Below, in pieces: positions 5,059 through 49,569 of a stretch of DNA of 52,439 nt. Position 1 is the first letter of the stretch. Every line of letters begins with the position of its first letter. A program made the position numbers and the translations under genes. Under the pieces are notes generated by a model, which was not told where the DNA came from, did no database searches, and saw only the letters and a list, made by a program, of their open reading frames with translations. Source of the DNA: a virus (lineage: Duplodnaviria; Caudoviricetes); IMG/VR virus record IMGVR_UViG_3300031772_000049, positions 1 to 52,439 of that record; one strand, 5' to 3'.

Positions 5059-5133
5059 TAGCCGTTCTCGCGGCTACATGGTGAGGGCGACAACAATGCC
5101 AGCTACTCACCAAACACTAAAATGTGACGAGAG
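5059..5133 (+). ncRNA. Dispersed tracr/omega-RNA-like scaffold fused to CRISPR-repeat 3' end (copy C)
   Basis: TAGCCG-TTCTCG-CGGCTA hairpin, GGTGAG...CTCACC stem, ends ATGTGACGAGAG (repeat end is ATGTGATGAGAG); homologous to 48375-48316 on the minus strand. Confidence 0.75.
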
Positions 5134-6430
5134 AAAAAGAAACCTAACGACTGACGATTTAAAGTTGTACATGCAATATCCCCATGTGCTCGGGCACGTC
5201 CTTGGCTATCCTGATTTAATCCCTCTACATTCTGAATGGATTGTCAATGCCTGGCTGAATAATAAATCATTTGCCATGCAGGCACATCGTAACTCATACA
5301 AAACTACCGCTATCATCGTGGTGGGCTGCGTATGGTATCTTTTGTTTTACGACCCTAATGCAACCATTTTAATTATTCGTAAGGCGGAGCAGGATGCACA
5401 GAAAATCGTGCAGACAATCCAATCTCATTTCTTAAACCCGGTCATTCAATTTTTGGGAAAACTTTTATATAAATGCGATACCCTACAATCAGAGCAGTGG
5501 TCAAGATCAAGTTTGAGACTATCAATTAAGACCACGCCGAGCCCTGAAGGTAATGTTGAGGCCAAGGGCACGTCATCGGCGGTGGTAGGGTCTCACTATG
5601 ACTTTATATTCCCTGATGACATTATTACCATACGGGACAGGGTATCAAAAGCTGAACGTGACTGGACAAAACTTTTTGTCAATGAGCTTTCAAACATCAA
5701 GAAAGAGGGCGGGAAAATTTTCTTTTCCGGTACCCCTTGGCATCCTGATGACGCGTGGAAAAATATCCCTGAGCCGAAAAAATATCCTATCGGGTCGGTC
5801 GATATCCCAGGATTTACGCAAGATGTTATTCAAAATAAAATAAAGGAATTAAAGCAAAGTAATTCCGTGTCCCTTTTTTCGGCGAACTATGAGCTCTCCC
5901 ATATTGCTGACATCGACCGGCTTTTTGGCGAACCTGATTACGCGCCATGGCCTGAAAGCTCATCGCAGATTATTGCATATCTGGACCCGGCGTATTCAGG
6001 GGACAATCACACGGCATTGGCTATGGGAGCCCGTCTGGATGCTTCTATTGTCGTATGCGGGTGGGTGTGGCGGCAAGACGTGACAGAGTTATATGATGTA
6101 ATAGTCAATATTTTAAATGATTACAAGTGCGGGACATTGTACGTGGAAACAAATGCCGATAAAGGATTGTCCGTTCGGGATTTTCAAAAGAAATATCCGT
6201 CAGTCATTGGTAGAAATGAGTCTCAAAATAAACACATAAAAATAGTTTCATTTGTAAAAAATAACTGGACAAAAATAAAATTTTCTGACACTATCAATAA
6301 TGATTTTTTAATGCAAGTTATGGAGTACCAAGAAGGACAAGAACCTGACGACGGGGTCGACGCCCTTTCTGGACTTTGCCGGGAAATGGGATTGTCTGGG
6401 TCCACCGAATTAAGAATGAGGTATATATAA
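5096..6430 (+). CDS. terL: Terminase large subunit
   Basis: AHRNSYKT Walker A variant, IFPDD Walker B, GTPWH, nuclease DPA...PDDGVDA; start uncertain (5078 or 5096, the latter has GGTGAGGG 8 nt upstream). Confidence 0.9.
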   Translation: MPATHQTLKCDERKRNLTTDDLKLYMQYPHVLGHVLGYPDLIPLHSEWIVNAWLNNKSFAMQAHRNSYKTTAIIVVGCVWYLLFYDPNATILIIRKAEQDAQKIVQTIQSHFLNPVIQFLGKLLYKCDTLQSEQWSRSSLRLSIKTTPSPEGNVEAKGTSSAVVGSHYDFIFPDDIITIRDRVSKAERDWTKLFVNELSNIKKEGGKIFFSGTPWHPDDAWKNIPEPKKYPIGSVDIPGFTQDVIQNKIKELKQSNSVSLFSANYELSHIADIDRLFGEPDYAPWPESSSQIIAYLDPAYSGDNHTALAMGARLDASIVVCGWVWRQDVTELYDVIVNILNDYKCGTLYVETNADKGLSVRDFQKKYPSVIGRNESQNKHIKIVSFVKNNWTKIKFSDTINNDFLMQVMEYQEGQEPDDGVDALSGLCREMGLSGSTELRMRYI

Positions 6431-6550
6431 AATGACGGTCGAATCGCTCGTAAAGATTGAAAACGAAATAAAAAATAAATATGATTTCAATACCCTCCGA
6501 AATAAAATACGACTGATTAAACTTGAGGAAAGGGCAGAGGTGCTGGCGAC

Positions 6551-6880
6551 ATGGACAATAATGGAAATGGAAACTTTGAGCGATTGCTTATGATACAAGA
6601 AAAAACGATCATGTCATGCGAGAAAATGGTGCATGGCATGGATATGTTAACTGTCGAAATGAAAGATCAAAGGGCTACCCTGAACGCCCGTCCGTGCGTG
6701 CTCGATACCGAAGAAATGACTCTTGTAAAAAATGACCTGGTCGACCTTAAAGATTTATTACAAAATAAAATTGATATAGTTGATGGAATACAACGATGGT
6801 TGAAACTCTGGACAGTTATCCTGACCTTGATCATTACCGGAGTTGGCCTGGCGTCGTTGTTTATTCGATTAAATAATTAG
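6551..6880 (+). CDS. Hypothetical protein with C-terminal transmembrane helix
   Basis: Coiled-coil followed by hydrophobic LWTVILTLIITGVGLASLFI. Confidence 0.5.
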   Translation: MDNNGNGNFERLLMIQEKTIMSCEKMVHGMDMLTVEMKDQRATLNARPCVLDTEEMTLVKNDLVDLKDLLQNKIDIVDGIQRWLKLWTVILTLIITGVGLASLFIRLNN

Positions 6881-6891
6881 GAGACATAATC

Positions 6892-7272
6892 ATGGCATTT
6901 ACTGAAAGTTTTTTTGGCCCGCATAACTGGCAGCACTTCAATTTTTACAAGACCGCTCCTGGAAGCGTATTATCATTTATAACCGAATCAATAAATATCT
7001 CCGCACCATGGAAGCTTCAAGAGCTTAGACTTCATTTTTCTACGGCCATGGGTTCGGTAAAATATCTTAATATCCGTGTGAGCTCGGTTGGCGGGTCTGC
7101 GCTGAATACAATCCTGCTCAGCCAGGACCTTAATGGCGTGCAGGACTTATACCTTCATTACAGCGATCCCATGTTATTTTTCAGCGATGATCAATTGGTT
7201 ATTACGACCAGCGTCATTTCCGTGGCGAACTGGTATGGGCTGCAAGTGATCGGATGGGCTGTTATAGACTAG
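6892..7272 (+). CDS. Hypothetical, probably a beta-sandwich virion protein
   Basis: Strong RBS AGGAGA; beta-rich composition. Confidence 0.5.
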   Translation: MAFTESFFGPHNWQHFNFYKTAPGSVLSFITESINISAPWKLQELRLHFSTAMGSVKYLNIRVSSVGGSALNTILLSQDLNGVQDLYLHYSDPMLFFSDDQLVITTSVISVANWYGLQVIGWAVID

Positions 7273-7282
7273 GAGATATGAA

Positions 7283-7720
7283 ATGTATCTTGTGATAAAT
7301 GGAATTGACCCGATACAAAAAATATTATCAGTAGTTGAAGCATCTTCAACAACCATCACATCCATATCTACCTCGACGTCAAGCGCGGATACTGTGGGGT
7401 CACATTCATACACTAACGTTGGTGGTGAGCAGACGGTGTATGAGTCCACGGTTGCAACTCGAAGGTTAATCCATGGTGTATGGATTGATTTGGTGAATAT
7501 GATAAAAGACGGCGTCATAAAACTATATTATAAAATAGACGGTACGAACTATCGCGAAATAAAATCATATACATTTACTGTGGCGACTGATTCCGACGGT
7601 GTATATATCGCACTAAGCCTAGGTGTAACAAATTCATGGAAGGTTACTTATACCGAGGGCGCGGATGAGGGTGCTGACCGTGCTATACCATATTCAGTAA
7701 TTTATGAGGTGAGGGAATAA
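7283..7720 (+). CDS. Hypothetical virion protein with Ser/Thr-rich linker
   Basis: RBS AGGAGA; ASSTTITSISTSTSSA segment. Confidence 0.5.
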   Translation: MYLVINGIDPIQKILSVVEASSTTITSISTSTSSADTVGSHSYTNVGGEQTVYESTVATRRLIHGVWIDLVNMIKDGVIKLYYKIDGTNYREIKSYTFTVATDSDGVYIALSLGVTNSWKVTYTEGADEGADRAIPYSVIYEVRE

Positions 7721-9162
7721 TGCCGGTACTGATTGAACAACCACCCACACCCACGGGGTTAAAATATCTTGGTACATGGAACGCGAGCTCGAATACCCCT
7801 GTTCTTGCGACTGGCGGTTCAGGTGGAAACATAAACGAGTTTTACGTGTGTAGTGTTGCAGATGCGTCATTCGCGGCGATCGATGGGATAACGTCGGCTA
7901 TCGTCGGTGACTGGATGCTGAATAACGGATCTGTGTGGCAGAAGGTGCCCTACACTGCACCGGCATCGCCTGACCCGCTTGCTAATACCTATCGCGTGTC
8001 ATCCACAGGTGGATCGTTTACAACTATACAGGCAGCCATTACTGCGATCAATTCCCTTGCTCATACTAATGGTGTGCGATTGGTTGTTGACGGCGGGATA
8101 TATACCATAGATGATACAATTATTATAAATTCAACCGTGAATTTAATGATCGAAGGAAGCGGGTATACTAGCACAATATTTAAAGCCGCAACCGGGCTTG
8201 AAAATAAACCAATGTTTGATATTCGATCTGCATGTAATTTTCTTCGCGTGGGGTTTGATGGGACGCTTGCGGGATGGGCGGCAACCACTGGCAGTTTTTT
8301 ATATTATAATACCACCGCACTTTTTAGCAGATTAAATGAGCTTGCTTTTGATACCGCACAAACAGGTATAAAAATAACAAAGGGAGTCGAAATTATTCTT
8401 ACAAACTTTATTTTTGATACGTGTACTACTGGTATATCAGTCAACACCACCGAGACACCAAAGTTGGATGTCGAGATAGGTGATTTTGTAGATTGCGCCA
8501 AGGGTATACATCTTATTAAGGCGGTGACAGGTGAGTTTATATTTATGGCACTTGTTTTTAAAAATCCTGCCCTTGGCGTTGGCATTACCTATGTGGGAGC
8601 GGATGTCACGTATACTTTATTTGATATTATGAACTGTATTCATAATTTCGTGGGTACGTTTTTATCCGGGTTTGATTTTACTATTGCGCGGGACGCTGAT
8701 ATTTATTTAAAATCAAATATCGGTGAAGAGGATAAAAAAGCACACGCAAAAATAAATCTAACCGGGGCGAGCGCAACCCAAAATTTGACGAGCAATACCC
8801 CTACTAAGATCACATATACAAATACTGATTCATACGCTTGTAAATTTACAATCGCTAACAATAAAATGACATACCTACCTACTAATTCATCCGATGTAAA
8901 TATGTGGGTATCTATAGCGTGCCAGACGACGACTAAAAATTCAACATTTACATTTGGGATTGTAAAAAATAATGTCACTACAACTTATTATGGTACTCAA
9001 AGTGTTACTTTTGATACTGATAATAAAACTCAAAACATGGCGACGAATATATATTTAGACGACGTGGCAAAAAATGATTATTTTGAGATTTTTTGCACCG
9101 CCGTTGGTGCAAATGAAACGATACGAATTGTTGACGTAAACTGGTTAGCAATAGCAGTATAG
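7720..9162 (+). CDS. Fibre/spike-like protein with pectate-lyase-like beta-helix
   Basis: N-terminal YLGTWNAS...VGDW...WQKV module; FTTIQAAI...GGIY...IEGSG beta-helix entry motif. Confidence 0.6.
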   Translation: MPVLIEQPPTPTGLKYLGTWNASSNTPVLATGGSGGNINEFYVCSVADASFAAIDGITSAIVGDWMLNNGSVWQKVPYTAPASPDPLANTYRVSSTGGSFTTIQAAITAINSLAHTNGVRLVVDGGIYTIDDTIIINSTVNLMIEGSGYTSTIFKAATGLENKPMFDIRSACNFLRVGFDGTLAGWAATTGSFLYYNTTALFSRLNELAFDTAQTGIKITKGVEIILTNFIFDTCTTGISVNTTETPKLDVEIGDFVDCAKGIHLIKAVTGEFIFMALVFKNPALGVGITYVGADVTYTLFDIMNCIHNFVGTFLSGFDFTIARDADIYLKSNIGEEDKKAHAKINLTGASATQNLTSNTPTKITYTNTDSYACKFTIANNKMTYLPTNSSDVNMWVSIACQTTTKNSTFTFGIVKNNVTTTYYGTQSVTFDTDNKTQNMATNIYLDDVAKNDYFEIFCTAVGANETIRIVDVNWLAIAV

Positions 9163-9172
9163 GATTATACAA

Positions 9173-10453
9173 ATGTTTATATTTTCAAAACTATTTAAAA
9201 GACAAAAAGCCATTGGGACATCGGCGTTGATACTGCAAGGCCGCACCACTACGTCATGGCCAGAGCGCAATTATGAGAATTATGTCAAGGAATCATATCT
9301 TAAAAATATAATATCATTTCGATGTGTAGACATTATCGCCAAGTCTTGCGCATCTGTTCCATGGGTTGCGTATTTTGAAAATACATTGGGCGAGCGTCAA
9401 GAGGTTGCGGACGACGTGATTACACGTCTGTTAAAACGTCCAAACCCAGGGCAATCTTGGCTATCGTTGGTATACTCAATTATTTCTTATTTGCCAATAT
9501 CAGGTAATTCTTTCATCCTGGGCGTTGCAGCATTGTCAGGTAGTAATGTGGGCAGGGTCATGGAGCTTTATTCCCTGCGACCTGATACTATTACTATCCA
9601 GCGTAATCAGTCGGGCGACGTGGTAGAATATGAGCACCGCAGCGGGACAGACACAAAAGTATATCCAGTTGACCCGATTACCGGGCGTTGTCAGATTAAA
9701 CATATCAAACTTTTTAATCCTCTCGATGCGACATGGGGAACGTCCGTCACCGAACCCGCAGCGCGTGACATTGACCTGTCGAACAGTCAAGCGGACTGGA
9801 ATAAGGGGCTACTAGATAATCAAGCACGACCGGGGATGGTGCTATCAACCAAGGATAATTTATCCGATCAACAATTCGACCGATTGCGTAAACAATGTTA
9901 CGAGGAACGCGAAGGGGCGATGAACGCAGGCAAGACCTTAATCCTTGAGGGCGCGACCATTGCCAATTCATATGGGTACAACCCCATAGAGATGGATTTT
10001 ACTGAGGGCCAGCGCGAGACCGCACGCCGTATTTGTAGTGCGTACGGGGTGCCGCCTCAAATGATTGGTATCAAGGGTGATTCGACGTTCGCGAACTATG
10101 AGCAGGCCCGATTGTCTTTCTGGGAAGATACGGTCATTTTTTATCTTGAACTATTACAGCAAGAATTGAACCACTGGTTATTTAAAGATTCTGAAATATA
10201 TCTTGAGTATGATCTCAATGAGGTTCCCGTTTTTATTGAAAAGAAAATTGCGCGTCTTGAGAAAATTGATAAGATGTCTTTTTATACCACCAACGAAAAA
10301 CGCGAAGCCGCGAACCTTGAACCTGTCGAGGGTGGTGATTCTGTTTTGATATCGTCAACCCTTATACCTTTAAATTCCGATACTATGCTTGAAGATACGA
10401 GTGTTGAAAATGAAGAGGGTGAAAGTATAATTGATGCCATCGAGTTTGAATAA
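9173..10453 (+). CDS. HK97-family portal protein
   Basis: CVDIIAKS, LLKRPNP, GNSF, ICSAYGVPP.MIG, TTNEKR motifs. Confidence 0.95.
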   Translation: MFIFSKLFKRQKAIGTSALILQGRTTTSWPERNYENYVKESYLKNIISFRCVDIIAKSCASVPWVAYFENTLGERQEVADDVITRLLKRPNPGQSWLSLVYSIISYLPISGNSFILGVAALSGSNVGRVMELYSLRPDTITIQRNQSGDVVEYEHRSGTDTKVYPVDPITGRCQIKHIKLFNPLDATWGTSVTEPAARDIDLSNSQADWNKGLLDNQARPGMVLSTKDNLSDQQFDRLRKQCYEEREGAMNAGKTLILEGATIANSYGYNPIEMDFTEGQRETARRICSAYGVPPQMIGIKGDSTFANYEQARLSFWEDTVIFYLELLQQELNHWLFKDSEIYLEYDLNEVPVFIEKKIARLEKIDKMSFYTTNEKREAANLEPVEGGDSVLISSTLIPLNSDTMLEDTSVENEEGESIIDAIEFE

Positions 10454-10488
10454 AAATTATGAACGATACGGTTAAGAATTATATTTTG

Positions 10489-10577
10489 CAGCCGTTCTCA
10501 CGGCTGAAGGGTGAGGGTAGCGATTTACTGCTAAGCCACTCACCAGACCTCATGTCGATAGGCGAATAGGATGAGAG
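10489..10577 (+). ncRNA. Dispersed tracr/omega-RNA-like scaffold fused to CRISPR-repeat 3' end (copy B)
   Basis: 54/60 ungapped identity to 48375-48316 (minus strand); CAGCCG-TTCTCA-CGGCTG hairpin; ends GATGAGAG, identical to the repeat 3' end. Confidence 0.85.
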
Positions 10578-10581
10578 GAAG

Positions 10582-11430
10582 ATGATTAACCTTGTAACAA
10601 ATCAGGCCCGGCAACAAGAGCGTGCGGCGATCGACCGTCAAATGAAAATCATTGAACGCCAGACGGTGCGCAAGGTTGCCCTTGAATTACAACGTCAATA
10701 CCTGGCGGCTGCGCGTCAAGTTGAGCATGGGGAACTTGAAATATTTCACCCGGTTAATGACGGCATTGAAAATTTGCGCTCCATCCTAATGGAATTATAC
10801 AAGCGGGTCATTAGTGTGTTCGGGTCGCGGGTGTTTGAAGCCCTTGAAAAGTCGGCTATGGTATATAGCCACAAGGCTATTCAAGATGAGTTTCAAACGA
10901 TTATTGACAGATGGATTGTTGTTCATGCGGCTGAAGAGGTCGTGCTAATAACCGCGACCACAAAAAAGATTTTAAAGGCAATTATAAAAAAAGGCCTCGA
11001 TGACCATAAATCGTACCGGGATATAGCAAAGTCTATTAGCAAGCACGTGACTCCCTTGAATACTTCCAGCGTGATGAAACGTGCATGGCGCATCACCAGG
11101 ACAGAGTGCCATACGGTTGCAATCAAGAGCATGAATGAAGCGATGGAGACGACCAGGTTAAAATATATGCGACAATGGGTGTCCGCGAAAGACGAGCGCA
11201 CGCGCGGGAACGTGAAGCGTGGTAAGAAGAAAAAAAGTAAGTTTGATCACTTCCATAGATACCCTCGTGGCGCGGACATGGAGACGATCGAGAAAGATGG
11301 TATATATGTAGGGTCTGGCGAGCCCTTGAAATTTCCGGGTGATCCTGATGGAAGCGCGGGAAATATTATAAATTGTCGATGTGTTGAAGTGTTTGAGACT
11401 AGAAAAGCGGTGATACGGAGGACTGTATGA
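10582..11430 (+). CDS. Head morphogenesis protein (Mu gpF/SPP1 gp7 family)
   Basis: RITRTE, W....DERTR, FPGDP and INCRC motifs. Confidence 0.9.
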   Translation: MINLVTNQARQQERAAIDRQMKIIERQTVRKVALELQRQYLAAARQVEHGELEIFHPVNDGIENLRSILMELYKRVISVFGSRVFEALEKSAMVYSHKAIQDEFQTIIDRWIVVHAAEEVVLITATTKKILKAIIKKGLDDHKSYRDIAKSISKHVTPLNTSSVMKRAWRITRTECHTVAIKSMNEAMETTRLKYMRQWVSAKDERTRGNVKRGKKKKSKFDHFHRYPRGADMETIEKDGIYVGSGEPLKFPGDPDGSAGNIINCRCVEVFETRKAVIRRTV

Positions 11431-12164
11431 TTAACGAGATTGAAAATGTAGTCGGGCCCAATATGAAAATGCTTGAAATACCATTTAAAATGTCAGCGAT
11501 ACATGAGGATGGAAAAATTGAGGGCTATGGGTCAACGTTCGGAGGGGCGCCGGATAGTTATGGTGACATAGTAGTTGCAGGGGCGTTCCTTGATACTATC
11601 AATCGCGGCGGTCGCAACGGCTCAGGGGTCATCCCCATGCTATGGCAGCATGATGCCAAAGAACCGATCGGGTATTGGGACATGGTTACTGAAAATAATA
11701 AAGGATTAAAACTATCCGGGAACTTGGTGCTCGAAGTACAGAAAGCAAAAGAAGCACACGCACTCGCGAAGAAAAAAGTCATCACGGGTCTATCAATCGG
11801 ATGGGATTTTTTACGTGGGCCTGATGGTAAGGTTGATAAAGAGTCTGTCGAATTTGACGAGAAAAAGAATATACGCTATTTAAAGAAAATTGATCTCTGG
11901 GAAATTAGTCTGGTTACATTTCCGGCTAATACCCGAGCAACTATCACAGGAACGAAATGTTTAGAAACCGCTACAAATGAACGCGATTTTGAGCGGGCCC
12001 TGCGAGATGCGGGATTATCTAAACACCAGGCACTCTATGTATCGTCGCTTTGCAGTTATAAATTTGAGGCGACCCGACAAGAGATGAAGGCAGCCAATCA
12101 ATTATTGGTTGCCCTACAATATGCCAATGCGAGATGCGAAGAGGCTAAAAATATTACTGAATAA
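11427..12164 (+). CDS. HK97-family prohead protease
   Basis: IEGYGSTF, MLWQHD..PIG, GLSIG, EISLVTFPAN. Confidence 0.95.
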   Translation: MINEIENVVGPNMKMLEIPFKMSAIHEDGKIEGYGSTFGGAPDSYGDIVVAGAFLDTINRGGRNGSGVIPMLWQHDAKEPIGYWDMVTENNKGLKLSGNLVLEVQKAKEAHALAKKKVITGLSIGWDFLRGPDGKVDKESVEFDEKKNIRYLKKIDLWEISLVTFPANTRATITGTKCLETATNERDFERALRDAGLSKHQALYVSSLCSYKFEATRQEMKAANQLLVALQYANARCEEAKNITE

Positions 12165-33629: not shown

Positions 33630-33849
33630 TAAAATCACCTATCATTTTTACTTGCGCTTTTTTACATCGCTTGCGCATTTCGATGACATCCACTTTTAAA
33701 AGTTCTCGTTTTTCATAAACTACATTTGAGGTAAATTGAGTTTTTATATTTACGTAATAATTATTACATTCTGATAAATCACTAAAAATATATTTTAATG
33801 TCCCATCGACATGAAGTAGATGCAACTCAATCATATAAACCCCCCTCAA
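33619..33849 (-). CDS. Hypothetical protein
   Basis: ORF track; lies in the operon. Confidence 0.4.
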   Translation of the reverse strand: MRGVYMIELHLLHVDGTLKYIFSDLSECNNYYVNIKTQFTSNVVYEKRELLKVDVIEMRKRCKKAQVKMIGDFNDL

Positions 33850-42164: not shown

Positions 42165-42656
42165 TCATTCGTATTTATCACAAATACCTAAAAAATTTAC
42201 ATTACTTTTTAATTCAACGCAAACGACAACATGCGGTAAATCAGAAAATACGTGACGGCAATTACCGCAACAATGCAGCTCAATTTCTGTATAATTAACT
42301 TCTTTTAGTTTTTCAATTTCAAACGACATATTTCCCTCCCCGCTCCTGAGGTTTGCGCCCACGAGGTCTGCGCCCTCGAGGTATGCGCCCTCGAGGTATG
42401 CGCCCTCGAGGTTTGCGCCCTCGAGGTTTGCGCCCTCGAGGTTTGCGCCCCCGAGGTCTGCGTCCCTGAGGTCTGCGTCCCTGAGGTTTGCGCCCACGAG
42501 GTCTGCGCCCACGAGGTCTGCGTCCCTGAGGTTTGCGCCCCTGAGGTCTGCGTCCCTGAGGTTTGCGCCCACGAGGTTTGCGCACTTACCCCCATCTATG
42601 TCTTTCAGCCACTTGTCATGCAAGTCCAGTATTGATTTTAGTTCTATGTCTGTCAT
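42165..42656 (-). CDS. Pentapeptide-repeat protein joined in frame to a Cys-rich domain
   Basis: A(N/D/Y)L.(G/D) repeats encoded by 15-bp tandem repeats at about 42345-42582; C-terminal CCGNC...C...C. Confidence 0.8.
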   Translation of the reverse strand: MTDIELKSILDLHDKWLKDIDGGKCANLVGANLRDADLRGANLRDADLVGADLVGANLRDADLRDADLGGANLEGANLEGANLEGAYLEGAYLEGADLVGANLRSGEGNMSFEIEKLKEVNYTEIELHCCGNCRHVFSDLPHVVVCVELKSNVNFLGICDKYE

Positions 42657-43277: not shown

Positions 43278-43760
43278 TTTTTACCTGTAAGTTTTTAAAT
43301 CCTGTTTTATAATGATTCAATAAGTTTTCCAAAGCTGCTATTGCTCATGTTGCGGTTATCAATCCAAAATTTTGCATCAATAATCTTGTTTGACTTTTTG
43401 ATAACTGACATGATTCTATTTTTATTATTTTTTTATGTTATAAATTCGATGAATAATACTATAACAATTGTTATCGGAATTGCTATTGCCAATGAAATTA
43501 AAATGTCTATCATGCTACCTCCTTTTTTAATTCCGCTTGTAATAATTCCAGCCATCGTGCGTTTCCCTCGTTTGAAAAATGGATTATTTGTTATTTTCTA
43601 ATATCATTTATTTTTTTATATCCTTGCGCCATTCCTTGGAAATCACACTTCATTGCACACAAACAAATTTGATCTTCAATCATTCTAATTTCTACTATTT
43701 CGAGTGCTGTTAATGTTTTCATCTTATTTCCTCCGTTTCTCAATCTCATCTTATATATAT

Positions 43761-43912: not shown

Positions 43913-43991
43913 TTTACCGTGTAATAGAATTACTTGAATTTAACAAAGACTCAAAACAATACTTTGTAGTGGAAAAATAAAATATAGACGC

Positions 43992-44417: not shown

Positions 44418-44421
44418 AGAA

Positions 44422-44487: not shown

Positions 44488-44494
44488 TTTTATA

Positions 44495-45265
44495 TTATAA
44501 TCCAGTAATCTCAACCACCTTTTTCAATTCCGCTTGTAATAATTCCAACCATCTCGCGTTTCCCTCGCTCGAAAAATGTACCGGACGAATCTTTGGCCAG
44601 TATTTTTCCATGAGTATTCTCATTGCTTTTCGATTGCCATATTCAGCCGCAAATATTATTTCCTGCGGGGGTAGTGGCCCGGCCTCAGGTAAGTTAAGAT
44701 ATGCAAGCCGGCACCAACCGGTAAGGGGGTTGTAAAACTCATCAAAAAAGTTTATGTACTGCCAACCGCATATATCACAAATTTGCTTGCATAGTTTGTT
44801 ATATTTTTTTACATCCACGTTATCGGCGTTCCCGTGCTGAATGACTGGAAGCACGCCGTGTACCAGTATTTTTGCGTTGCAATAATCTTGTACGGCAAAA
44901 TTTAGACGGCATAAGCAACCAAGTATGTGTTGGTTAGTAGCATTTCCTCCCAGATCATTTCCCGCAAGGTTTGAAAACAACCACCCGCCGCCTTGATTTA
45001 TTATTGATTGTACAACCTCATGACCAGACCATCCAATCACCGTAGTACCACCAACGCCACCGTTTACAATAGGGATATCAAGTTTTAATTGTGAAACCGG
45101 GAATCCGGCGAGCCTGGAATCTCCTATCATTACCAATTGATTTTTTAATATACCTGGCGCGTATAGATTAGAAAATTCCATGGAATACTTCTTGAACTCT
45201 TGCGGGCAAAAAAACAATTTACTGATTTCATTTAATTCTTTTTCGTGTTTCACGTTTAATACCAT
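44495..45265 (-). CDS. SGNH/GDSL hydrolase (esterase)
   Basis: Blocks GDS, NGGVGG, GND and ..VHF. Confidence 0.8.
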   Translation of the reverse strand: MVLNVKHEKELNEISKLFFCPQEFKKYSMEFSNLYAPGILKNQLVMIGDSRLAGFPVSQLKLDIPIVNGGVGGTTVIGWSGHEVVQSIINQGGGWLFSNLAGNDLGGNATNQHILGCLCRLNFAVQDYCNAKILVHGVLPVIQHGNADNVDVKKYNKLCKQICDICGWQYINFFDEFYNPLTGWCRLAYLNLPEAGPLPPQEIIFAAEYGNRKAMRILMEKYWPKIRPVHFSSEGNARWLELLQAELKKVVEITGL

Positions 45266-45498: not shown

Positions 45499-45572
45499 TT
45501 CTTATCCCTCACAATGATATAAAATTATACACATGGCCGCCACCGACAATATAACTACAATTCCATATATTA

Positions 45573-45776
45573 TCATGATATCACCGTACTAATCATTAAA
45601 TCTAAAATTTGCCTATATATTTCCATTATCGTGTGGCATTCGTCCTGAACTACAAAGCTAGAGTTCGCATAATAAAATGTTAATGTATCCTTTTTTAATT
45701 CTATAAAGTTTACATTATTAAGATTTATACATGTTACTGTATCTTTTTTCATGTCTTTAAATTCATACATTTTCAT
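45573..45776 (-). CDS. Hypothetical protein
   Basis: ORF track; ATGA overlap. Confidence 0.45.
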   Translation of the reverse strand: MKMYEFKDMKKDTVTCINLNNVNFIELKKDTLTFYYANSSFVVQDECHTIMEIYRQILDLMISTVIS

Positions 45777-45961
45777 CTCGGCACATCCTCCATACCATTA
45801 AATAAATTTACCTTAAACTTTTCAATATCCCGTTCTATTGCATTAAGCCTTTTACCCATAAAAATAAAAGTCTCTGACAATACAATCATCGATACAAAAT
45901 TCACGATTGAGAAAATTATTATGATGGTCAATATCGCGCCGTGTTTACGTTCATCGCTCAT
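45773..45961 (-). CDS. Small membrane protein
   Basis: Hydrophobic N-terminus; ATGA overlap with polA. Confidence 0.45.
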   Translation of the reverse strand: MSDERKHGAILTIIIIFSIVNFVSMIVLSETFIFMGKRLNAIERDIEKFKVNLFNGMEDVPR

Positions 45962-47844
45962 TTAAAATACCTCTTTGACATAAAACTTTCTGTTTTCAAC
46001 GGAAACCCCTTAAACCATTCCGGCGGGACGTTCATTATAGTATCAAATACTTTTAATTTCGCCTTTGCCTGCGTGGTCAATGCCTGGGCGACCACCTCAT
46101 CATGCACACTCATGATCGGGAATATCTCCACTTTATCAAGCTCAAGCATCGCGTGGCATAGTAAGTCCCGTGCAATGGCCTGGACGATGTTTTCAGTAAT
46201 AAGTCCGCCCCATAATTTTACGGTCATATTCTGCGCAAAATTTAAAAATGATATCCCCTCGGGACCCCTGGTCACACGATGATAGTACAGGTCCCGGCCA
46301 GAGGGCAGTTTAATAGATACATAGCCCTTGTCGGCATGTAATAGCATACCATTTACTTTTACTTTCTTGCCCTTATTAACCAGTACATAATTAAAAGCCG
46401 ACTCAATCGATGCCCAGAATTGCACAATATTTTTAAAGCTTGATCGATAAGTATAGATTGCTTTTTCGGCGGTGTGAATATTGATCGCCAATCCCTGCGC
46501 CTGGCATACCTCAAAAAATCTATTATGACCCATCCCATATCCTGCTCCTAAAATTACACTTTTCCCAAGGTGCCTTTCTTTTTTTGTCACGTCATCCAGG
46601 GGCTTTTGATAAATTACGGCTGCCATTTTTTTATACAGGTCATCCCCTTTTCGATACGCCTCAATCAATATCTTTTCCCCCGCAATCCAGGCAAGTACCC
46701 GCGCTTCAATTGCGGAAAAGTCGCCCATTAAAAATACGTGCCCTTTATCGGGGATAATCATTCCGGGTAATACTTTTTTAGCTGCGGTCATAGTTTCAAT
46801 TACTGGAACTTTATCCGCCAATAAATCCTTTAATAATGCCGCCTGTTCTTTTTCTGTTTGTCCACCCTTAGGTAGATTATGGGGCTGGAAGCCTACCCCG
46901 GACCATCGACCCGTATTCGCCCGATAATATTGCAAAAAATACCGCAACCTGCCATCAGGGGACACCCGATCAATCAATGCGGAATACTTCTTGATTGATG
47001 AGCGGGATAAAAACAAACGCAACTCAAGCATGGCACGGGCATCCGCGTCAAGATTCGGATTTAATAATATATCCTTGATTGTTTTTTCCTGCGCATTGGC
47101 GATTGATATATTAAAATTGTCCTTTAAATACTTTTGTAATTGTTTCGGTGACCGGACATTTACCCCCTTTTCTTCCATCCGTTTTTCGGCATCCAGGGTC
47201 GCGGCATTGACTAGCATGTCTATCTTTTTGAGAGCCTTGACATCAATATGTATACCATGAATGTTTTGTCTACGGTCAAGATTCATAATCGGCTTTTCAA
47301 TTGCAATATTGTCGTACTTCGCTAATCTATTATATACCTTTTCAGTCAATTCCACGTCTTGTTTACAATACATAATCATGGTATCAAGTTCAGCCGCCGG
47401 TATGGGATTAAATTCACCCTTACGATTAGGCTTGCTATACGTTTGTATCAGGTGCTTACCCACCGCGAGCTTGCTCTCCCCGAGTTTTAAGACGCCGCAC
47501 AGAGGTTCTAAGCCCCCGGGTAGCGCCATGCAGCGTGCCATGTTAGCGGTACATTCCCATCGTAATGGGTCCGCGAGGGCCAGGGGAAAGCCGTATTTTT
47601 TACGTAGTACATTAGCAAATAGCGCATACTCAAAAAGGGCATTGTGCGCAACGAATGTATATTGGTGATTGACATGAAAAGCATCCGGTACACTATCTCC
47701 GGGCACCCACACGTTGACTTTATTGCCCTCGACCTTATACGCCACACAAAAAACATCGGTTGATGAATGCTCGGCATACCGCCATGCGCCCACTTCAACC
47801 AAGTCCGCTTTTGATCGTGTTTCAATATCAATAAATATTTTCAT
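45958..47844 (-). CDS. polA: Family A DNA polymerase with 3'-5' exonuclease
   Basis: DIET, AHNA.FE, YCKQDV exonuclease motifs; TGRWS, DFSAIEAR, R..GK...LG.GYG, VHDE. Confidence 0.93.
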   Translation of the reverse strand: MKIFIDIETRSKADLVEVGAWRYAEHSSTDVFCVAYKVEGNKVNVWVPGDSVPDAFHVNHQYTFVAHNALFEYALFANVLRKKYGFPLALADPLRWECTANMARCMALPGGLEPLCGVLKLGESKLAVGKHLIQTYSKPNRKGEFNPIPAAELDTMIMYCKQDVELTEKVYNRLAKYDNIAIEKPIMNLDRRQNIHGIHIDVKALKKIDMLVNAATLDAEKRMEEKGVNVRSPKQLQKYLKDNFNISIANAQEKTIKDILLNPNLDADARAMLELRLFLSRSSIKKYSALIDRVSPDGRLRYFLQYYRANTGRWSGVGFQPHNLPKGGQTEKEQAALLKDLLADKVPVIETMTAAKKVLPGMIIPDKGHVFLMGDFSAIEARVLAWIAGEKILIEAYRKGDDLYKKMAAVIYQKPLDDVTKKERHLGKSVILGAGYGMGHNRFFEVCQAQGLAINIHTAEKAIYTYRSSFKNIVQFWASIESAFNYVLVNKGKKVKVNGMLLHADKGYVSIKLPSGRDLYYHRVTRGPEGISFLNFAQNMTVKLWGGLITENIVQAIARDLLCHAMLELDKVEIFPIMSVHDEVVAQALTTQAKAKLKVFDTIMNVPPEWFKGFPLKTESFMSKRYFK

Positions 47845-47870
47845 ATTATTTCATCAAACTCCGTTTTACG
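47838..47870. repeat. 33-bp direct repeat, copy 1 (polA RBS and start, abutting the terminal CRISPR repeat)
   Basis: TTTTCATATTATTTCATCAAACTCCGTTTTACG, identical to 49563-49595. Confidence 0.95.
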
Positions 47871-47871
47871 T

Positions 47872-48234
47872 CTCTCATCACACGCGCCCGCGCGAGTTGC
47901 AGGACCATAAAAAGTAATATGGTACAATGCAATCATCTCTCATCACACGCGCCCGCGCGAGTTGCAGGCAAGCAATTATTCAAAAAGCAATTACACGTCA
48001 AACTCTCATCACATGCGCCCGCGCGAGTTGCAGGGTTATGTTTCGTCTGTCAAATATGGTTCCCTTCTCTCATCACATGCGCCCGCGCGAGTTGCAGGAA
48101 GTCCTCTGTTTTGCTTTTCTTGACGTGGTGTATTCTCTCATCACATGCGCCCGCGCGAGTTGCAGGGATAAAACCCCCATCCCTGCAAGCCTGATTAACA
48201 GCCTCTCATCACATGCGCCCGCGCGAGTTGCAGG
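47872..48234 (-). CRISPR. CRISPR array, six 32-bp repeats and five spacers of 32-36 bp
   Basis: Repeat (minus strand) CCTGCAACTCGCGCGGGCGC(A/G)TGTGATGAGAG at + positions 47872, 47937, 48003, 48067, 48135, 48203; spacers 33, 34, 32, 36, 36 bp. Confidence 0.97.
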
Positions 48235-48236
48235 TG

Positions 48237-48375
48237 CCTGCATGTAAACGCTGATTGATTGAGCTCATGCGCCCGCACTTCCGCTAACCTTACATTTCTC
48301 GTCTATTGGCGTGGTGTCTGGTGAGTGGCTTAGCGGTAACCCGTTGCCCTCACCCTCCAGCCGTGAGAACGGCTG
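48237..48375 (-). ncRNA. Putative tracrRNA/omega-RNA scaffold (copy A), overlapping the cas12f 3' end
   Basis: Loop TTCTCA complementary to repeat end TGAGAG; GGTGAG/CTCACC stem; 3' anti-repeat TTACATGCAGG pairs with repeat CCTGCA and GCATGTGA. Confidence 0.8.
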
Positions 48376-49569
48376 AGCATCAAATGATGCTATATTCAAA
48401 GCGGCATTGTAATCCGCATTGATTTCTAATCCGCAGGATTGACATACGAAATGCTGTTGATCAACCCTGTTTTCTTTCGCCCGATGACCGCATCCAGAAC
48501 ATGTCTGTGATGTATATCGGGGATTTATATATTCAATGTCGATACCCTGATTTTTTGCCTTATACTCAATCATTTTTTGTAATTGATAATATGTCCAGTT
48601 CCTGCGTAAAAATTTATTCTGAATATCATCATGTATACCCGTCAATTTTTCCATACGTATCATCCCGACATTATTAGCCACACAAAATTTTATGGTTTCC
48701 CTTGATAATAAATGGTTATAGTTTGTACGCACTTCATGCTCTTTGTTTTCAAACCTGTCCAGGGCTTTTAATTTTTTTGTCCGTCCGTGCCCGCTGGAAG
48801 TTAATTTTATATTTTTTTGTAATGATCTCTTTTTTTGAATGCTGACTTTACGGGTCATTTTTAATATGTCGTCCATGCCCCCCAGGAATAAACGTTTCGG
48901 GGTGTCTTTTATGGCGAGCGATAATAAATTAAATGAATTAGCGTTTGAGTCAATCCCGCATACAATATTTTTATTCGGGGACTTTGTTATTATTTCATGT
49001 GAATGAACAATGTATAAATACCAGAAGCCTTTTCTTTTTATTAATTTTGAATCATGCTGGTCATATGCCCCCGATAGTATGCCGTCAAGAATTACAGATA
49101 ATGACTTATCTTTATTTATGCCGATCATTTCAAACTTTGTTTTATTCATGGCCGATGGTTCTAAAAAATATCTACCATCAGTTTTATATATTTTTCGCCC
49201 CTGCTTTCGGCATGGAATTGAATCATCTTTCATTCGTGGTATAGAGCGCATATTTTTTAATATATCTTTTTTAAATTTTAAAAATTCATTAACCGCATCA
49301 ATCCGCGCGTGAGAAGCAAGAGTTTTTGTAGCAAATTCAGGATCAGTTTTAAAACTATCAATATACGAGGCATACGATAACGACCGGCCGTCTTCTTTTT
49401 TCACTGTTTTATTATCAATATTGTTCTGCATATATGCCACACACCGACGAATAGCAATATTGCGTTCTCGATTTAATTCGTTGCTCACGCACGCCATCCA
49501 GTACATGATTTTTTTCCAATCATCACCGCAAATGATAAGTTTTATTTTAGCTACTGCCCGTGTTTTCAT
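48265..49569 (-). CDS. cas12f: Cas12f1-like (TnpB-derived) miniature type V effector
   Basis: RuvC-I VCGID, GHGRTKKLK, NH..SR, RuvC-II MEKL, NWTYY.LQ..I.YKA...GI, P.YTSQ.CS.CG, C..CG, RuvC-III NADYNAA.NI; adjacent array. Confidence 0.9.
   Translation of the reverse strand: MKTRAVAKIKLIICGDDWKKIMYWMACVSNELNRERNIAIRRCVAYMQNNIDNKTVKKEDGRSLSYASYIDSFKTDPEFATKTLASHARIDAVNEFLKFKKDILKNMRSIPRMKDDSIPCRKQGRKIYKTDGRYFLEPSAMNKTKFEMIGINKDKSLSVILDGILSGAYDQHDSKLIKRKGFWYLYIVHSHEIITKSPNKNIVCGIDSNANSFNLLSLAIKDTPKRLFLGGMDDILKMTRKVSIQKKRSLQKNIKLTSSGHGRTKKLKALDRFENKEHEVRTNYNHLLSRETIKFCVANNVGMIRMEKLTGIHDDIQNKFLRRNWTYYQLQKMIEYKAKNQGIDIEYINPRYTSQTCSGCGHRAKENRVDQQHFVCQSCGLEINADYNAALNIASFDAQPFSRLEGEGNGLPLSHSPDTTPIDEKCKVSGSAGA

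What the first reader, a model, noticed from the sequence alone, without database searches (positions are those of the whole stretch)
5059..49569. Candidate new system: phage Cas12f with single-guide scaffolds embedded in front of its own essential genes
Seen: the RNA scaffold beside the CRISPR array (48375 downward) recurs twice far away, before terL and before gpF. Each distant copy is shortened and fused directly to the repeat 3' end (GAGAG), the architecture of an engineered sgRNA or a TnpB omega-RNA. At all three places (these two plus the last array repeat) the sequence right after GAGAG is the 5' region of a core phage gene: terL, gpF, polA. Established: Cas12f/TnpB guides start right after the pseudoknot-forming scaffold end, and TnpB takes its guide from flanking DNA. 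Inference A: the phage uses its own conserved gene starts as guides to cut co-infecting relatives lacking the insert; at terL and gpF self is immune because the scaffold occupies the PAM position. This would be kin exclusion or homing. Inference B: Cas12f binds these mRNA leaders and times translation of packaging and head genes. I know of no description of this arrangement but could not search the literature.
Basis: partly seen in the sequence, partly recalled or inferred. Interest (0 to 1): 0.95.

Follow-up and report, generated by a model that had tools for sequence, protein, structure and literature searches.

The report
Phage Cas12f with scattered single-guide genes
A sediment phage carries a miniature CRISPR nuclease plus two stand-alone guide-RNA genes wedged at the starts of its packaging and head genes, an arrangement that looks built to cut, and convert, related phages that lack the inserts.

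Summary
A 434-aa Cas12f (48265-49569, minus strand; best solved relatives CnCas12f1, OsCas12f-like and AsCas12f, E 1e-42 to 6e-46) sits beside a six-repeat array. The first ~60 nt of its tracrRNA recur at 5058-5117 and 10488-10550, and nowhere else in the window (covariance model 90, 87 and 74 bits; next hit 12 bits). Both distant copies run on into the repeat's 3' end (GAGAG) and then into phage gene sequence. They are natural single-guide RNAs of 75 and 89 nt.

New evidence:
- One metagenome contig joins 10447 to 10578. It skips exactly 130 nt, which is copy C plus a 41-nt left part. This restores an overlapping portal/MuF gene pair and puts a T-rich flank (GAGTTT) next to the guide match.
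- TerL homologues show that terL's start codon must lie inside copy B.
- The polA "guide" is different. Its 33-nt target is duplicated, with its native flank, in the same genome.

Best reading (about 0.5): protein-less, PATE-like guide elements served in trans by the phage Cas12f, which cut empty alleles of co-infecting kin (homing or marker exclusion). Rivals are translational control, plain mini-transposons and relics. No relative, PAM or RNA data were obtainable. New variant of a known kind.

The parts
48265..49569 (-). cas12f gene, 434 aa (P0001). RuvC D/E/D positions and the CxxC...CxxC zinc ribbon are present. Its last ~37 codons overlap scaffold A.
   Evidence: Pfam Cas12f1-like_TNB 4.5e-26. 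phrog_506 7.2e-42. PDB phmmer: 8hr5 6.2e-46, 8j1j 1.9e-44, 7wju 1.4e-42, with the acidic residues aligned. It is the only TNB match in the record.
48285..48376 (-). Scaffold A, the tracrRNA. It has hairpin 1 (loop UUCUCA), stem 2, then an imperfect co-linear anti-repeat (about 48287-48320) that pairs with the repeat.
   Evidence: Duplex with the repeat is -18.8 kcal/mol against -12.3 +/- 3.0 for 1000 shuffled repeats; 30 of 1000 are as good. CM hit of 90 bits.
48261..48280 (-). Degenerate repeat-like stretch between the tracrRNA and the first repeat, in the same sense as the repeat.
   Evidence: Read. By eye only.
47872..48234 (-). CRISPR array: six 32-nt repeats ending GAUGAGAG and five spacers of 32-36 nt. 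The two repeats nearest polA carry an A>G change, which marks the trailer end.
   Evidence: (D3).
47838..47870 (-). Right copy of an exact 33-nt direct duplication. It starts 1 nt after the last repeat and holds the ribosome-binding region and the first 7 nt of polA.
   Evidence: D12.
49563..49595 (-). Left copy of the 33-nt duplication. It holds the end of the DUF2800/PD-(D/E)XK exonuclease gene and the first 7 nt of cas12f (ATGA stop/start overlap).
   Evidence: D12.
5059..5133 (+). Copy B, a 75-nt single-guide scaffold. Parts: hairpin 1 (5059-5076, loop UUCUCG), stem 2 (5079-5112, with ATG 5096 in its apical loop), a 3-bp CAC/GUG stem (5115-5126), and the pseudoknot strand CGAGAG (5128-5133). 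Its left edge is not determined.
   Evidence: I5, D11; 74.2 bits.
5134..5153 (+). Guide B, the first 20 nt after GAGAG. It encodes TerL residues K20-D26 of the 450-aa frame. The 20-nt length is assumed.
   Evidence: No second match in the window.
5078..6430 (+). terL. The only in-frame starts upstream of the conserved N-terminal helix are ATG 5078, GTG 5081 and ATG 5096, and all three lie inside copy B.
   Evidence: phrog_38 2.8e-55. 1424 homologues found; the best align from their residues 3-7 to query residues 21-26. Alignment A2. One source's gene call on record starts at 5096 and another's at 5078.
10448..10577 (+). Element C, 130 nt. It has a 41-nt AT-rich left part (10448-10488) followed by the 89-nt single-guide scaffold (10489-10577): hairpin 1 with loop UUCUCA, stem 2, a remodelled third stem, and the pseudoknot strand UGAGAG. 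It is absent from one natural allele. Its edges can slide by up to 3 nt because of GAA microhomology.
   Evidence: I1; 86.9 bits. Joint 10447->10578 in run X2 (table 5).
10578..10597 (+). Guide C, the first 20 nt after GAGAG. It covers the 4 nt before the MuF ATG (10582) and the first five codons. The 20-nt length is assumed.
   Evidence: No second match in the window. 0 exact matches in viral contigs.
10459..10569 (+). 36-codon ORF running through copy C. It starts 5 nt after the portal stop and ends 12 nt before the MuF ATG. Its reading frame matches that of the Cas12f C-terminal tail.
   Evidence: Read. Not tested.
9173..10453 (+). Portal gene. Its stop codon is supplied by the left edge of element C.
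   Evidence: Pfam Phage_portal 1.4e-68.
10582..11430 (+).
   Evidence: phrog_2468 3.3e-32. Pfam Phage_Mu_F scores 26.6 bits, below its 29.6 cut-off.
45958..47844 (-). Family A DNA polymerase gene, downstream of the array.
   Evidence: Pfam DNA_pol_A 4.9e-30; phrog_17 1.4e-101.
49566..50645 (-). DUF2800/PD-(D/E)XK exonuclease gene, upstream of cas12f.
51073..51684 (+). Gp2.5-like ssDNA-binding/annealing protein. This is recombination machinery that homing would need.
   Evidence: phrog_112 2.3e-29.

Best explanation
Copies B and C are protein-less guide-RNA elements, natural single-guide RNAs derived from the 3' end of the cas12f gene and its tracrRNA. Each is inserted exactly at the start of an essential late gene. 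Each is transcribed in the sense of that gene. Its scaffold folds into hairpin 1, stem 2, a short third stem and a pseudoknot between the hairpin-1 loop and the last six scaffold bases. The next ~20 nt, which are the gene's own 5' end, serve as the guide. The phage's single, catalytically intact Cas12f loads these RNAs in trans. In the phage's own DNA the guide match is preceded by the scaffold end, so there is no PAM. In a co-infecting relative without the insert it is preceded by native sequence that supplies a T-rich PAM (GAGTTT at site C). That genome is cut at terL or at the portal/MuF junction. It is then either lost, or repaired from the insert-bearing genome by the phage's own exonuclease and annealing protein. 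Repair copies the insert and its flanking alleles (homing with marker exclusion). The array's five spacers give the same nuclease ordinary CRISPR targets. What is shown here: the copies, their fold, their exact edges, the intact nuclease motifs, the presence/absence polymorphism at C, and the terL start inside B. What is inferred: transcription, loading, the PAM, cleavage and conversion.
For: (1) The nuclease is a true Cas12f with the RuvC D, E and D positions and the zinc ribbon aligned to solved Cas12f structures.

(2) There are three copies and no more. B and C fold better than shuffles.

(3) The pseudoknot partner covaries. The loop is UUCUCA with 3' end UGAGAG in A-plus-repeats and in C. 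It is UUCUCG with CGAGAG in B. All 6 pairs form in each, and the A-loop with the B-end would mispair.

(4) B and C share the same 5' edge (hairpin 1) and the same 3' edge (GAGAG), although their middles differ.

(5) An empty allele exists. In run X2 one contig (depth 4.74) joins 10447 to 10578 and skips 130 nt. Two other X2 contigs end at 10444 and begin at 10578. The right edge of the skip is the base after GAGAG, which I had defined independently from the repeat.

(6) The empty allele is a clean gene arrangement. The portal frame would run two more codons to the TAA at 10587-10589 and overlap the MuF ATG by 8 nt. The guide match would then be flanked 5' by GAGTTT (read). Cas12f PAMs are 5' T-rich or C-rich (PMC13186708 passages; PMC12216341 abstract).

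(7) C also occurs in a background about 7% diverged upstream (X8 records 28 and 29). B occurs in a background about 12% diverged (X5 record 17). A TerL variant (P0218) keeps the scaffold-coded residues and differs in the guide-coded ones, KR>RK.

(8) The guides are in the sense of the mRNA, so they can pair with DNA but not with their own transcripts.

(9) The phage encodes a PD-(D/E)XK exonuclease and a Gp2.5-like annealing protein.

(10) There is precedent. TnpB cuts empty donor sites using flank-derived guides, and PATEs carry omega-RNAs that need a TnpB in trans (PMC10055086 passages).
Against: The empty allele rests on one contig in one of the 4 runs laid (13 were listed). Its shorter side is only 30 nt, and the run was laid at min_likeness 80; the tool warns that such joints can come from other organisms or repeats. 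All 3 portal proteins of the 90% cluster end as in the insert-bearing allele.

The PAM is unknown, and no protospacer was found for any spacer. The closest solved relatives include both T-rich and C-rich PAM enzymes. No RNA data exist; no listed run is RNA. The pseudoknot covariation is a single pair, and RNAfold can also draw that base as a seventh pair of hairpin 1, U-A versus U-G.

The scaffolds of 75 and 89 nt are far shorter than the 129-156 nt guide RNAs reported for Cas12f orthologues, so they may not load. Both scaffolds lie in translated RNA, which would compete with RNP assembly. The polA site does not fit the model, since its target is duplicated in the same genome. No related phage or second lineage with this arrangement was found.
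Confidence: 0.5

Rival explanations
1. Cis-acting leaders. The scaffolds are regulatory RNA structures in the late mRNAs. Cas12f, made from the replication module, binds them and blocks or times translation of TerL and of the MuF protein. The guide portion has no DNA target.
For: terL's only usable start codons (5078, 5081, 5096) lie inside copy B. ATG 5096 sits in the apical loop of stem 2, and a GGUGAGGG stretch 8 nt upstream is locked in the stem. In C the MuF Shine-Dalgarno-like GAGAGGAAG overlaps the pseudoknot strand. All three scaffold ends abut start regions.
Against: An allele without C exists and has a tidy coupled portal/MuF overlap, so C is not a required regulator. The exact retention of the repeat's 3' end and of the pseudoknot partner, next to a flank-derived guide, is what a guide RNA needs and more than a protein-binding site needs. 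The nuclease motifs are intact, whereas known TnpB-derived regulators (TldR) are nuclease-dead. Nothing here tests RNA binding.
Confidence: 0.15
2. Plain non-autonomous mini-transposons. B and C are PATE/MITE-like derivatives of an IS605-type element, moved by a TnpA transposase supplied by the host or by the missing part of the phage. Their guides are not used today.
For: The 130-nt presence/absence difference is precise, sits 3' of a T-rich motif, and shows no clear target duplication, only 3 ambiguous bases. The scaffold derives from the 3' end of the nuclease gene, as omega-RNAs do. PATEs with omega-RNAs are known.
Against: No Y1 transposase was found in the record, although CheckV calls it 45% complete and the host is unknown. 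The left parts of B and C share only an 8-nt match (p 0.31), and no end hairpins were evident. The protein is a Cas12f, not a TnpB: ISDra2 TnpB scores E 0.002 against 6e-46 for Cas12f. The kept pseudoknot pairing argues that the RNA is still under selection. This rival overlaps the best explanation, because in TnpB systems transposition and guide-directed homing act together.
Confidence: 0.2
3. Functionless relics. Two old partial duplications of the tracrRNA region were left at tolerated intergenic spots.
For: No expression or activity data exist. Only one lineage is known. The scaffolds are much shorter than known Cas12f guide RNAs.
Against: Two independent copies share both edges, keep stems 1 and 2, and keep a complementary loop/3'-end pair despite 16-23% divergence from A or from each other. 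B has been built into the terL reading frame and supplies its start. B persists in a ~12% diverged background.
Confidence: 0.1
4. RNA decoys. The solo scaffolds soak up a related Cas12f of the host, acting as an RNA anti-CRISPR. That class is recalled from the literature, not checked here.
For: Phages are known to carry solitary repeat units (recalled).
Against: The matching nuclease and tracrRNA are encoded by the phage itself. The host is unknown. A decoy has no need of a precise junction with an essential gene start.
Confidence: 0.05

Closest known systems
IS200/IS605 TnpB with omega-RNA, and protein-less PATEs whose omega-RNAs need a TnpB in trans (Meers et al. 2023 preprint, PMC10055086; passages read)
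   Same: The guide scaffold derives from the 3' end of the nuclease gene and ends at the element edge. The guide is the flanking DNA. The empty site carries the adjacent motif that the occupied site lacks. A scarless presence/absence polymorphism exists. Guide-only elements are served by a nuclease encoded elsewhere.
   Different: The nuclease here is a Cas12f with a CRISPR array and a split tracrRNA/crRNA, not a TnpB. No TnpA is found. The elements sit in a phage at the start codons of essential genes. The proposed recipient is a co-infecting genome rather than a sister chromosome.
Type V-F1 CRISPR-Cas12f (CnCas12f1 8hr5, the 432-aa protein of 8j1j/8j12, AsCas12f 7wju/8dzj)
   Same: Sequence relatives at E 1e-42 to 6e-46 over residues ~91-396. 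The size, RuvC and zinc-ribbon motifs, adjacent array, and tracrRNA next to the gene all agree.
   Different: Extra single-piece guide genes lie 37-43 kb from the locus. The scaffolds are 75-89 nt, against the 129-156 nt reported for orthologues. No cas1 is present in the record. The system is phage-borne.
TranC, transposon-CRISPR intermediates, and the RNA-splitting model (Jin et al. 2025 Cell; known only through passages of the review PMC13565253, and from recall)
   Same: One genome holds both forms of the guide RNA: split (tracrRNA plus array) and single-piece with a flank-derived guide.
   Different: The protein is only faintly similar to LaTranC (E 0.007-0.009). Here the two RNA forms lie at different loci. 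Use of both forms is not shown.
Free-standing homing endonucleases of T-even phages (SegF and others): intronless homing and localized marker exclusion (review PMC13565253 passages)
   Same: A nuclease gene sits between conserved essential genes (exonuclease and polA). The proposed mechanism is cutting of a related co-infecting phage at conserved genes, with co-conversion of flanks.
   Different: Recognition would be by RNA, not protein. One nuclease would serve several loci through separate guide inserts. Self-protection would come from displacing the PAM.
TldR, nuclease-dead TnpB-like RNA-guided repressors (PMC10705468 abstract in search listing; review passage)
   Same: A TnpB-family protein with a nearby fixed guide RNA is used for gene control, which is the model for the regulatory rival.
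   Different: The catalytic residues here are intact. The guides match the phage's own coding starts in the sense orientation, not promoters.

Membership tests
Type V-F CRISPR-Cas12f | Split RuvC domain with three acidic catalytic residues, plus a C-terminal zinc-ribbon (TNB) domain | tested here: met
   Pfam Cas12f1-like_TNB 4.5e-26. In the phmmer alignments to 8hr5 and 8j1j, the D of GIDSN, the E of RMEKL and the D of NADYNAA align to identical residues, and both CxxC pairs are present. That these are the catalytic positions is recalled from the family literature.
Type V-F CRISPR-Cas12f | Small effector (400-700 aa) next to a CRISPR array | tested here: met
   434 aa. Six 32-nt repeats begin 31 nt after the stop codon. 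The size range is from PMC13186708.
Type V-F CRISPR-Cas12f | tracrRNA with an anti-repeat and a pseudoknot to the repeat's 3' end | tested here: inconclusive
   In silico only. The loop UUCUCA pairs with UGAGAG in 6 of 6 positions. The co-linear duplex is -18.8 kcal/mol, and 30 of 1000 shuffles are as good. No RNA data exist.
Type V-F CRISPR-Cas12f | 5' PAM-dependent double-strand DNA cleavage as a homodimer | not testable with these tools
   No protospacers were found. No biochemistry was possible.
Type V-F CRISPR-Cas12f | Adaptation genes (cas1, cas2, cas4) in the locus. These are present in some V-F loci only and are not defining. | tested here: not met
   No Cas1 match in the record at E<=1. 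The neighbouring PD-(D/E)XK exonuclease gives only a weak hit to a 'CRISPR/Cas associated' PHROG (1.4e-05).
IS200/IS605 TnpB-omegaRNA element, including PATE | Guide scaffold overlaps the nuclease gene's 3' end, ends at the element edge, and takes its guide from the flank | tested here: met
   Scaffold A starts 112 nt before the stop codon. The right edge of the 130-nt indel at C is the base after GAGAG.
IS200/IS605 TnpB-omegaRNA element, including PATE | Y1 (or serine) TnpA transposase, in cis or in trans | tested here: not met
   No PF01797 match in the 52-kb record. The serine type was not searched. A trans supply from the host or from the missing part of the genome cannot be tested.
IS200/IS605 TnpB-omegaRNA element, including PATE | Conserved left- and right-end hairpins, with a TAM at the left flank | tested here: inconclusive
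   The left flanks are T-rich (GAGTTT at C; ATTTT before B's AT-rich left part). The left parts of B and C share only 8 nt (p 0.31). No end hairpins were evident.
IS200/IS605 TnpB-omegaRNA element, including PATE | Scarless presence/absence polymorphism | tested here: met
   One contig joins 10447 to 10578 with no letters in between (tables 5 and 5c). This is a single observation.
IS200/IS605 TnpB-omegaRNA element, including PATE | Nuclease is a TnpB rather than a Cas12 | tested here: not met
   ISDra2 TnpB (8bf8, 8h1j) scores E 0.0021 over the TNB domain only, against Cas12f at 6e-46 over 300 residues.
TranC (transposon-CRISPR intermediate) | One nuclease uses both CRISPR RNA and a single-piece transposon-end RNA | not testable with these tools
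   Genes for both RNA forms are present, but their use is untested. Sequence similarity to LaTranC is marginal (E 0.007-0.009).
Free-standing phage homing endonuclease | Protein-based site recognition by an HNH, GIY-YIG or LAGLIDADG nuclease | tested here: not met
   The nuclease is a RuvC/TNB Cas12f. The resemblance is in proposed behaviour only.

The most novel reading that the evidence does not exclude
A phage runs an RNA-guided, multi-locus gene drive. One 434-aa Cas12f is armed in two ways. A small CRISPR array covers foreign targets. Dispersed 84-130-nt guide-only inserts sit at the starts of terL and the MuF gene, and each inserts converts or kills co-infecting kin that lack it. Self is protected merely because the insert displaces the PAM. 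The same genome would then show, side by side, the single-piece (omega-RNA-like) and the split (tracrRNA/crRNA) state of a type V guide. It would also hold the shortest natural Cas12f guide scaffold (75 nt).
Probability: 0.4. Interest if true: 0.9.

Novelty: new variant of a known kind. Interest (0 to 1): 0.78.

Why it matters
If the guides work, three things follow.

- It would be a first case, as far as six literature searches could tell, of RNA-guided homing or marker exclusion between phages. That would extend the TnpB "cut the empty site" logic from transposon retention to virus-virus competition. It would also extend phage homing from protein-based to RNA-based recognition.
- It would be a living example of both guide-RNA states, single-piece and split, serving one Cas12f. 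That bears directly on how type V CRISPR arose from transposon RNAs.
- It offers a practical lead: a 434-aa nuclease with natural 75-89-nt single-guide scaffolds, about half the size of published Cas12f guide RNAs.

Even if the guides are inert, the case shows that a structured RNA element can be built into the start codon region of a terminase gene.

Tried and rejected
**Searches for relatives**
- DNA search of 4400-6500 in the phage collection: no match.
- The scaffold pattern in viral contigs: 0.
- The scaffold pattern in metagenome contigs: 2 hits (L006, L007). Both are GC-rich coding sequence with no similarity beyond the pattern, so they are chance matches.
- Protein-seeded locus searches with polA and TerL: none.
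- The same search with Cas12f: 3 distant loci of at most 37% identity. I looked at one of them, L003. It has three ordinary arrays and no dispersed scaffolds.
- Portal homologues: the next cluster is at most 54% identical. TerL homologues are at most 53% identical.

**Spacer targets**
- The whole array against the phage collection: no match.
- The first 22 nt of spacers 1 and 2 in viral contigs: 0 each. Spacers 3-5 were not scanned in collections.
- In the window, spacers 1-4 and guides B and C have no second match longer than 18 nt. The rows for spacer 5 fell in the part of that output that was cut.
- The guide C 20-mer in viral contigs: 0.

**RNA evidence**
- No RNA holder is listed among the 13 runs.
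- Rfam gives nothing at gathering scores and only noise at E<=10 around A and C.

**Promoters**
- 27 consensus matches were found in 4000-12000 against 21.1 +/- 4.2 expected, which is not informative. One 11-of-12 match lies at 10404-10431.

**Ideas rejected**
- The 33-nt similarity between 3120-3152 and 10452-10484 (82%, D14) is about what chance gives in this AT-rich genome by my estimate, and nothing scaffold-like follows at 3153.
- The shared GAGTTTGA at the left flanks of C and of the cas12f cassette occurs 8 times in the window against 1.45 expected. One of the 8 lies across a repeat/spacer junction, and four others lie away from any of these elements. I read the excess as codon bias, not a target motif. 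The C-left versus A-left alignment (18 of 22) is matched by 6 of 1126 genome chunks.
- The folded A region as a whole is not better than shuffles (z -1.2).

**Tools**
- Supplementary files of papers were not opened. They may list phage-borne TnpB/Cas12f loci or PATEs that bear on the novelty claim.

Full report
**What the window is.** The window is a whole IMG/VR virus record of 52,439 bp. It is linear, and CheckV estimates it as 45% complete. It encodes a tailed phage:
- primase, a ParB-like protein and a C5 cytosine methylase;
- a 148-aa ORF of no known family, then TerL, portal, a Mu F-like head protein, prohead protease and major head protein on the plus strand;
- an endolysin;
- a replication module with family A polymerase, a DUF2800/PD-(D/E)XK exonuclease, a Gp2.5-like annealing protein and a helicase.

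The cas12f stretch occurs in 13 listed sediment-metagenome DNA runs of 2019-2020. They carry 13 study codes, may be one campaign, and the best holder may be the source sample. None is RNA.

**The nuclease and its locus.** ORF 48265-49569 (minus strand) gives a 434-aa protein. It matches Pfam Cas12f1-like_TNB at 4.5e-26. Its closest solved relatives are Cas12f enzymes: 8hr5 at 6.2e-46, 8j1j at 1.9e-44, and 7wju/8dzj at 1.4e-42. ISDra2 TnpB matches only at 0.002 over the zinc ribbon. In the printed alignments the three RuvC acidic residues and both CxxC pairs are conserved. Its nearest relatives in 5.8 billion proteins are at most 43% identical.

Six 32-nt repeats with five spacers follow the gene (47872-48234). 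The two repeats nearest polA carry a point change, as trailer ends often do. The record has no Cas1, no Y1 transposase and no second TNB domain.

The stretch from 48376 down to about 48285 overlaps the last ~37 codons of the gene. It folds into a 7-bp hairpin, a long bulged stem, and a tail. The tail can pair co-linearly with the repeat at -18.8 kcal/mol, against -12.3 +/- 3.0 for shuffled repeats; 30 of 1000 shuffles do as well. The hairpin loop UUCUCA is fully complementary to the repeat's last six bases, UGAGAG. This is the pseudoknot that type V tracrRNAs typically form with the repeat's 3' end (passage in 10.1101/2025.01.20.633832). So this is a type V-F-like locus with a tracrRNA.

**The observation.** The first ~60 nt of that scaffold recur at 5058-5117 (B) and 10488-10550 (C), on the plus strand. 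A covariance model run with filters off gave 90, 86.9 and 74.2 bits for A, C and B. Nothing else scored above 12 bits. Simple pattern counts agree, as does.

After stem 2 the three copies differ:
- **A** runs into the anti-repeat.
- **B** has only a 3-bp CAC/GUG stem with a 6-nt loop, followed by ACGAGAG. Its last 12 nt match the repeat's last 12 in 11 positions.
- **C** keeps a remodelled version of A's tail that can fold on itself, followed by AUGAGAG.

B and C are therefore single-piece versions of tracrRNA plus repeat end, 75 and 89 nt long. B's hairpin loop reads UUCUCG and its 3' end reads CGAGAG, so the A-U pair of the proposed pseudoknot has become G-C. This is one covarying pair, and RNAfold can alternatively use the loop base to extend hairpin 1. 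B and C fold better than shuffles, at z -3.5 and -3.0. No Rfam family matches.

**Where B and C sit.**

*Copy C.* C ends 4 nt before the ATG of the Mu F-like gene (10582), and GAGAG plus the next bases make that gene's Shine-Dalgarno-like sequence. A 36-codon ORF (10459-10569) runs through C, from 5 nt after the portal stop to 12 nt before the MuF ATG.

*Copy B.* B lies inside the long terL reading frame. Of 1424 TerL homologues, the best align from their residues 3-7 to residues 21-26 of the 450-aa frame. In a 10-sequence alignment, homologues begin 3-12 residues before a conserved LKxYxxxPHxLGH helix. In this phage the only in-frame start codons upstream of that helix are ATG 5078, GTG 5081 and ATG 5096, all inside B. 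The next ones (TTG 5165, ATG 5171) would cut the helix.

So terL is translated from within the scaffold. ATG 5096 lies in the apical loop of stem 2, whose inner helix is missing in B alone. The collection records both the 5096 and the 5078 start, from different sources.

*Orientation.* Both guides are in the sense of the mRNA, so they could pair with DNA but not with the transcripts they sit in.

**An empty allele.** I laid the Logan contigs of 4 of the 13 runs on 4400-11600 at 80% likeness. Run X1 is like the window. In run X2 one contig (depth 4.74) joins 10447 directly to 10578. It skips 130 nt, has no letters in between and has 3 ambiguous bases (GAA). Two other X2 contigs end at 10444 and begin at 10578, as an assembly graph does at a branch.

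The skipped piece is a 41-nt AT-rich left part plus the whole of C. Its right edge is the first base after GAGAG, an edge I had set beforehand from the repeat.

Read from the window sequence, the joined form has three properties:
- The portal frame runs two more codons, to the TAA at 10587-10589.
- The portal gene then overlaps the MuF ATG by 8 nt, a normal coupled gene pair.
- The guide-C match is preceded by GAGTTT instead of the scaffold end.

Cas12f enzymes use 5' T-rich or C-rich PAMs.

Cautions apply. This is one contig with a 30-nt shorter side, laid at a likeness setting for which the tool itself warns about false joints.

C is also present in run X8, in a background about 7% diverged upstream (records 28 and 29). 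B's scaffold is covered by an X5 contig about 12% diverged (record 17).

Protein variants in the 90% clusters add a little:
- A TerL variant keeps the scaffold-coded residues and changes the guide-coded KR to RK.
- All 3 portal variants end as in the filled allele.
- Three Cas12f variants change a lysine whose codon lies in an unpaired bulge of the predicted anti-repeat duplex.
- One Cas12f variant (P0220, 426 aa) ends in a peptide that is the translation of the repeat. In that contig the scaffold is joined directly to a full repeat and the anti-repeat is gone.

**The polA site is different.** The 33 nt that follow the last repeat, after one base, are repeated exactly at 49563-49595. There they form the end of the exonuclease gene and the first 7 nt of cas12f. 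The cassette therefore sits in a 33-nt duplication that gives both cas12f and polA the same ribosome-binding region and start.

If the last repeat yielded a working guide with a PAM at that site, the phage would cut its own left copy, which has the native flank ending ...TACCG. Either that flank is not a PAM, which fits a T-rich PAM, or the trailing unit is not used. I count this site as array trailer, not as a third homing guide. The origin of the duplication is unexplained.

**Mechanism.** The best-supported reading (about 0.5) is that B and C are guide-only elements of the kind known for IS605 transposons. There, TnpB uses a scaffold that ends at the element edge and a guide taken from the flank to cut the empty site and trigger copying by recombination. 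Protein-less PATEs carry such RNAs for a TnpB encoded elsewhere (PMC10055086 passages).

Here the nuclease is a Cas12f with its own array. The elements sit in a phage, and the natural recipients would be co-infecting relatives. The outcome would resemble intronless homing and marker exclusion by Seg/Mob endonucleases of T-even phages (PMC13565253 passages). The phage has the exonuclease and annealing protein such repair needs.

Steps shown here: anatomy, edges, intact motifs, polymorphism at C, and a T-rich flank in the empty allele. Steps inferred: transcription, loading of such short scaffolds, the PAM, cleavage and conversion.

The rivals are:
- translational control of terL and MuF by Cas12f binding, 0.15. 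It is favoured by the start codon inside B and weakened by the viable empty allele and the intact nuclease;
- plain mini-transposons moved by an unseen TnpA, 0.2. This is compatible with homing as well;
- relics, 0.1;
- decoys against a host Cas12f, 0.05.

**Novelty.** Six full-text searches found no description of Cas12f or TnpB guide-only elements in phage genomes, or of RNA-guided homing between phages. Neither did passages of a 2026 review of OMEGA systems and homing. Subscription-only papers and supplements were not seen.

The components are known: Cas12f, flank-derived guides, PATEs, TranC-type coexistence of split and single-piece RNAs, and phage homing. The combination and setting are new, so I rate it a new variant of a known kind. 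It is known from one phage lineage only. No relative closer than ~54% (portal) or 43% (Cas12f) protein identity was found outside its own 90% clusters.

Noticed in passing
Protein P0220 (a member of the Cas12f 90% cluster, on a 1399-bp contig); corresponds to window ~48235-48315: This 426-aa Cas12f variant ends in a peptide that is the in-frame translation of the CRISPR repeat. In that contig the scaffold (up to ...AGACACC) appears to be joined directly to a full repeat, with about 77 nt deleted, including the predicted anti-repeat. That would be a third natural fused guide form. It could also be an assembly artefact.
   Followed up: partly
window 47838-47870 and 49563-49595: An exact 33-nt direct duplication brackets the whole cas12f-tracrRNA-array cassette. 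It gives cas12f and polA identical ribosome-binding regions and first two codons. How it arose is unexplained.
   Followed up: partly
window 42348-42583: A tandem array of 15.7 copies of a 15-nt GC-rich unit (89% matches) lies inside overlapping minus-strand ORFs of the early region. It could be iterons or a 5-residue protein repeat.
   Followed up: no
window 2510-2561 and 2639-2690: A 52-nt inverted repeat (83%) whose arms each hold three tandem GGAACACC units. It lies just upstream of the ORFs before the ParB-like gene (3127-3645), so it may be a partition or origin site.
   Followed up: no
window 33827-36903 (minus strand): Genes for a nucleotide-sugar epimerase (phrog_540, 2.3e-34) and an aminotransferase (phrog_3139, 8.5e-49) lie in the phage. 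A C5 cytosine methylase lies at 3618-4637. These may serve DNA or surface-glycan modification.
   Followed up: no
window 43517-43581 and 44514-44578: A 65-nt direct repeat at 89% identity, 997 nt apart, in the early region. It probably marks the ends of two paralogous small genes.
   Followed up: no
L003 (viral contig, 13,946 bp) 1192-2022, 3764-4089, 7182-7686: This distant Cas12f-like gene (421 aa, 37% identity to P0001) lies in a viral contig with three separate CRISPR arrays of two repeat types. None of the dispersed single-guide copies seen here is present.
   Followed up: partly
window 1-2231 and 51911-52438: The record starts with a primase gene and ends inside a helicase gene. The replication module may therefore continue across the ends, and the 45% completeness estimate may be too low or the contig may be permuted.
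   Followed up: no
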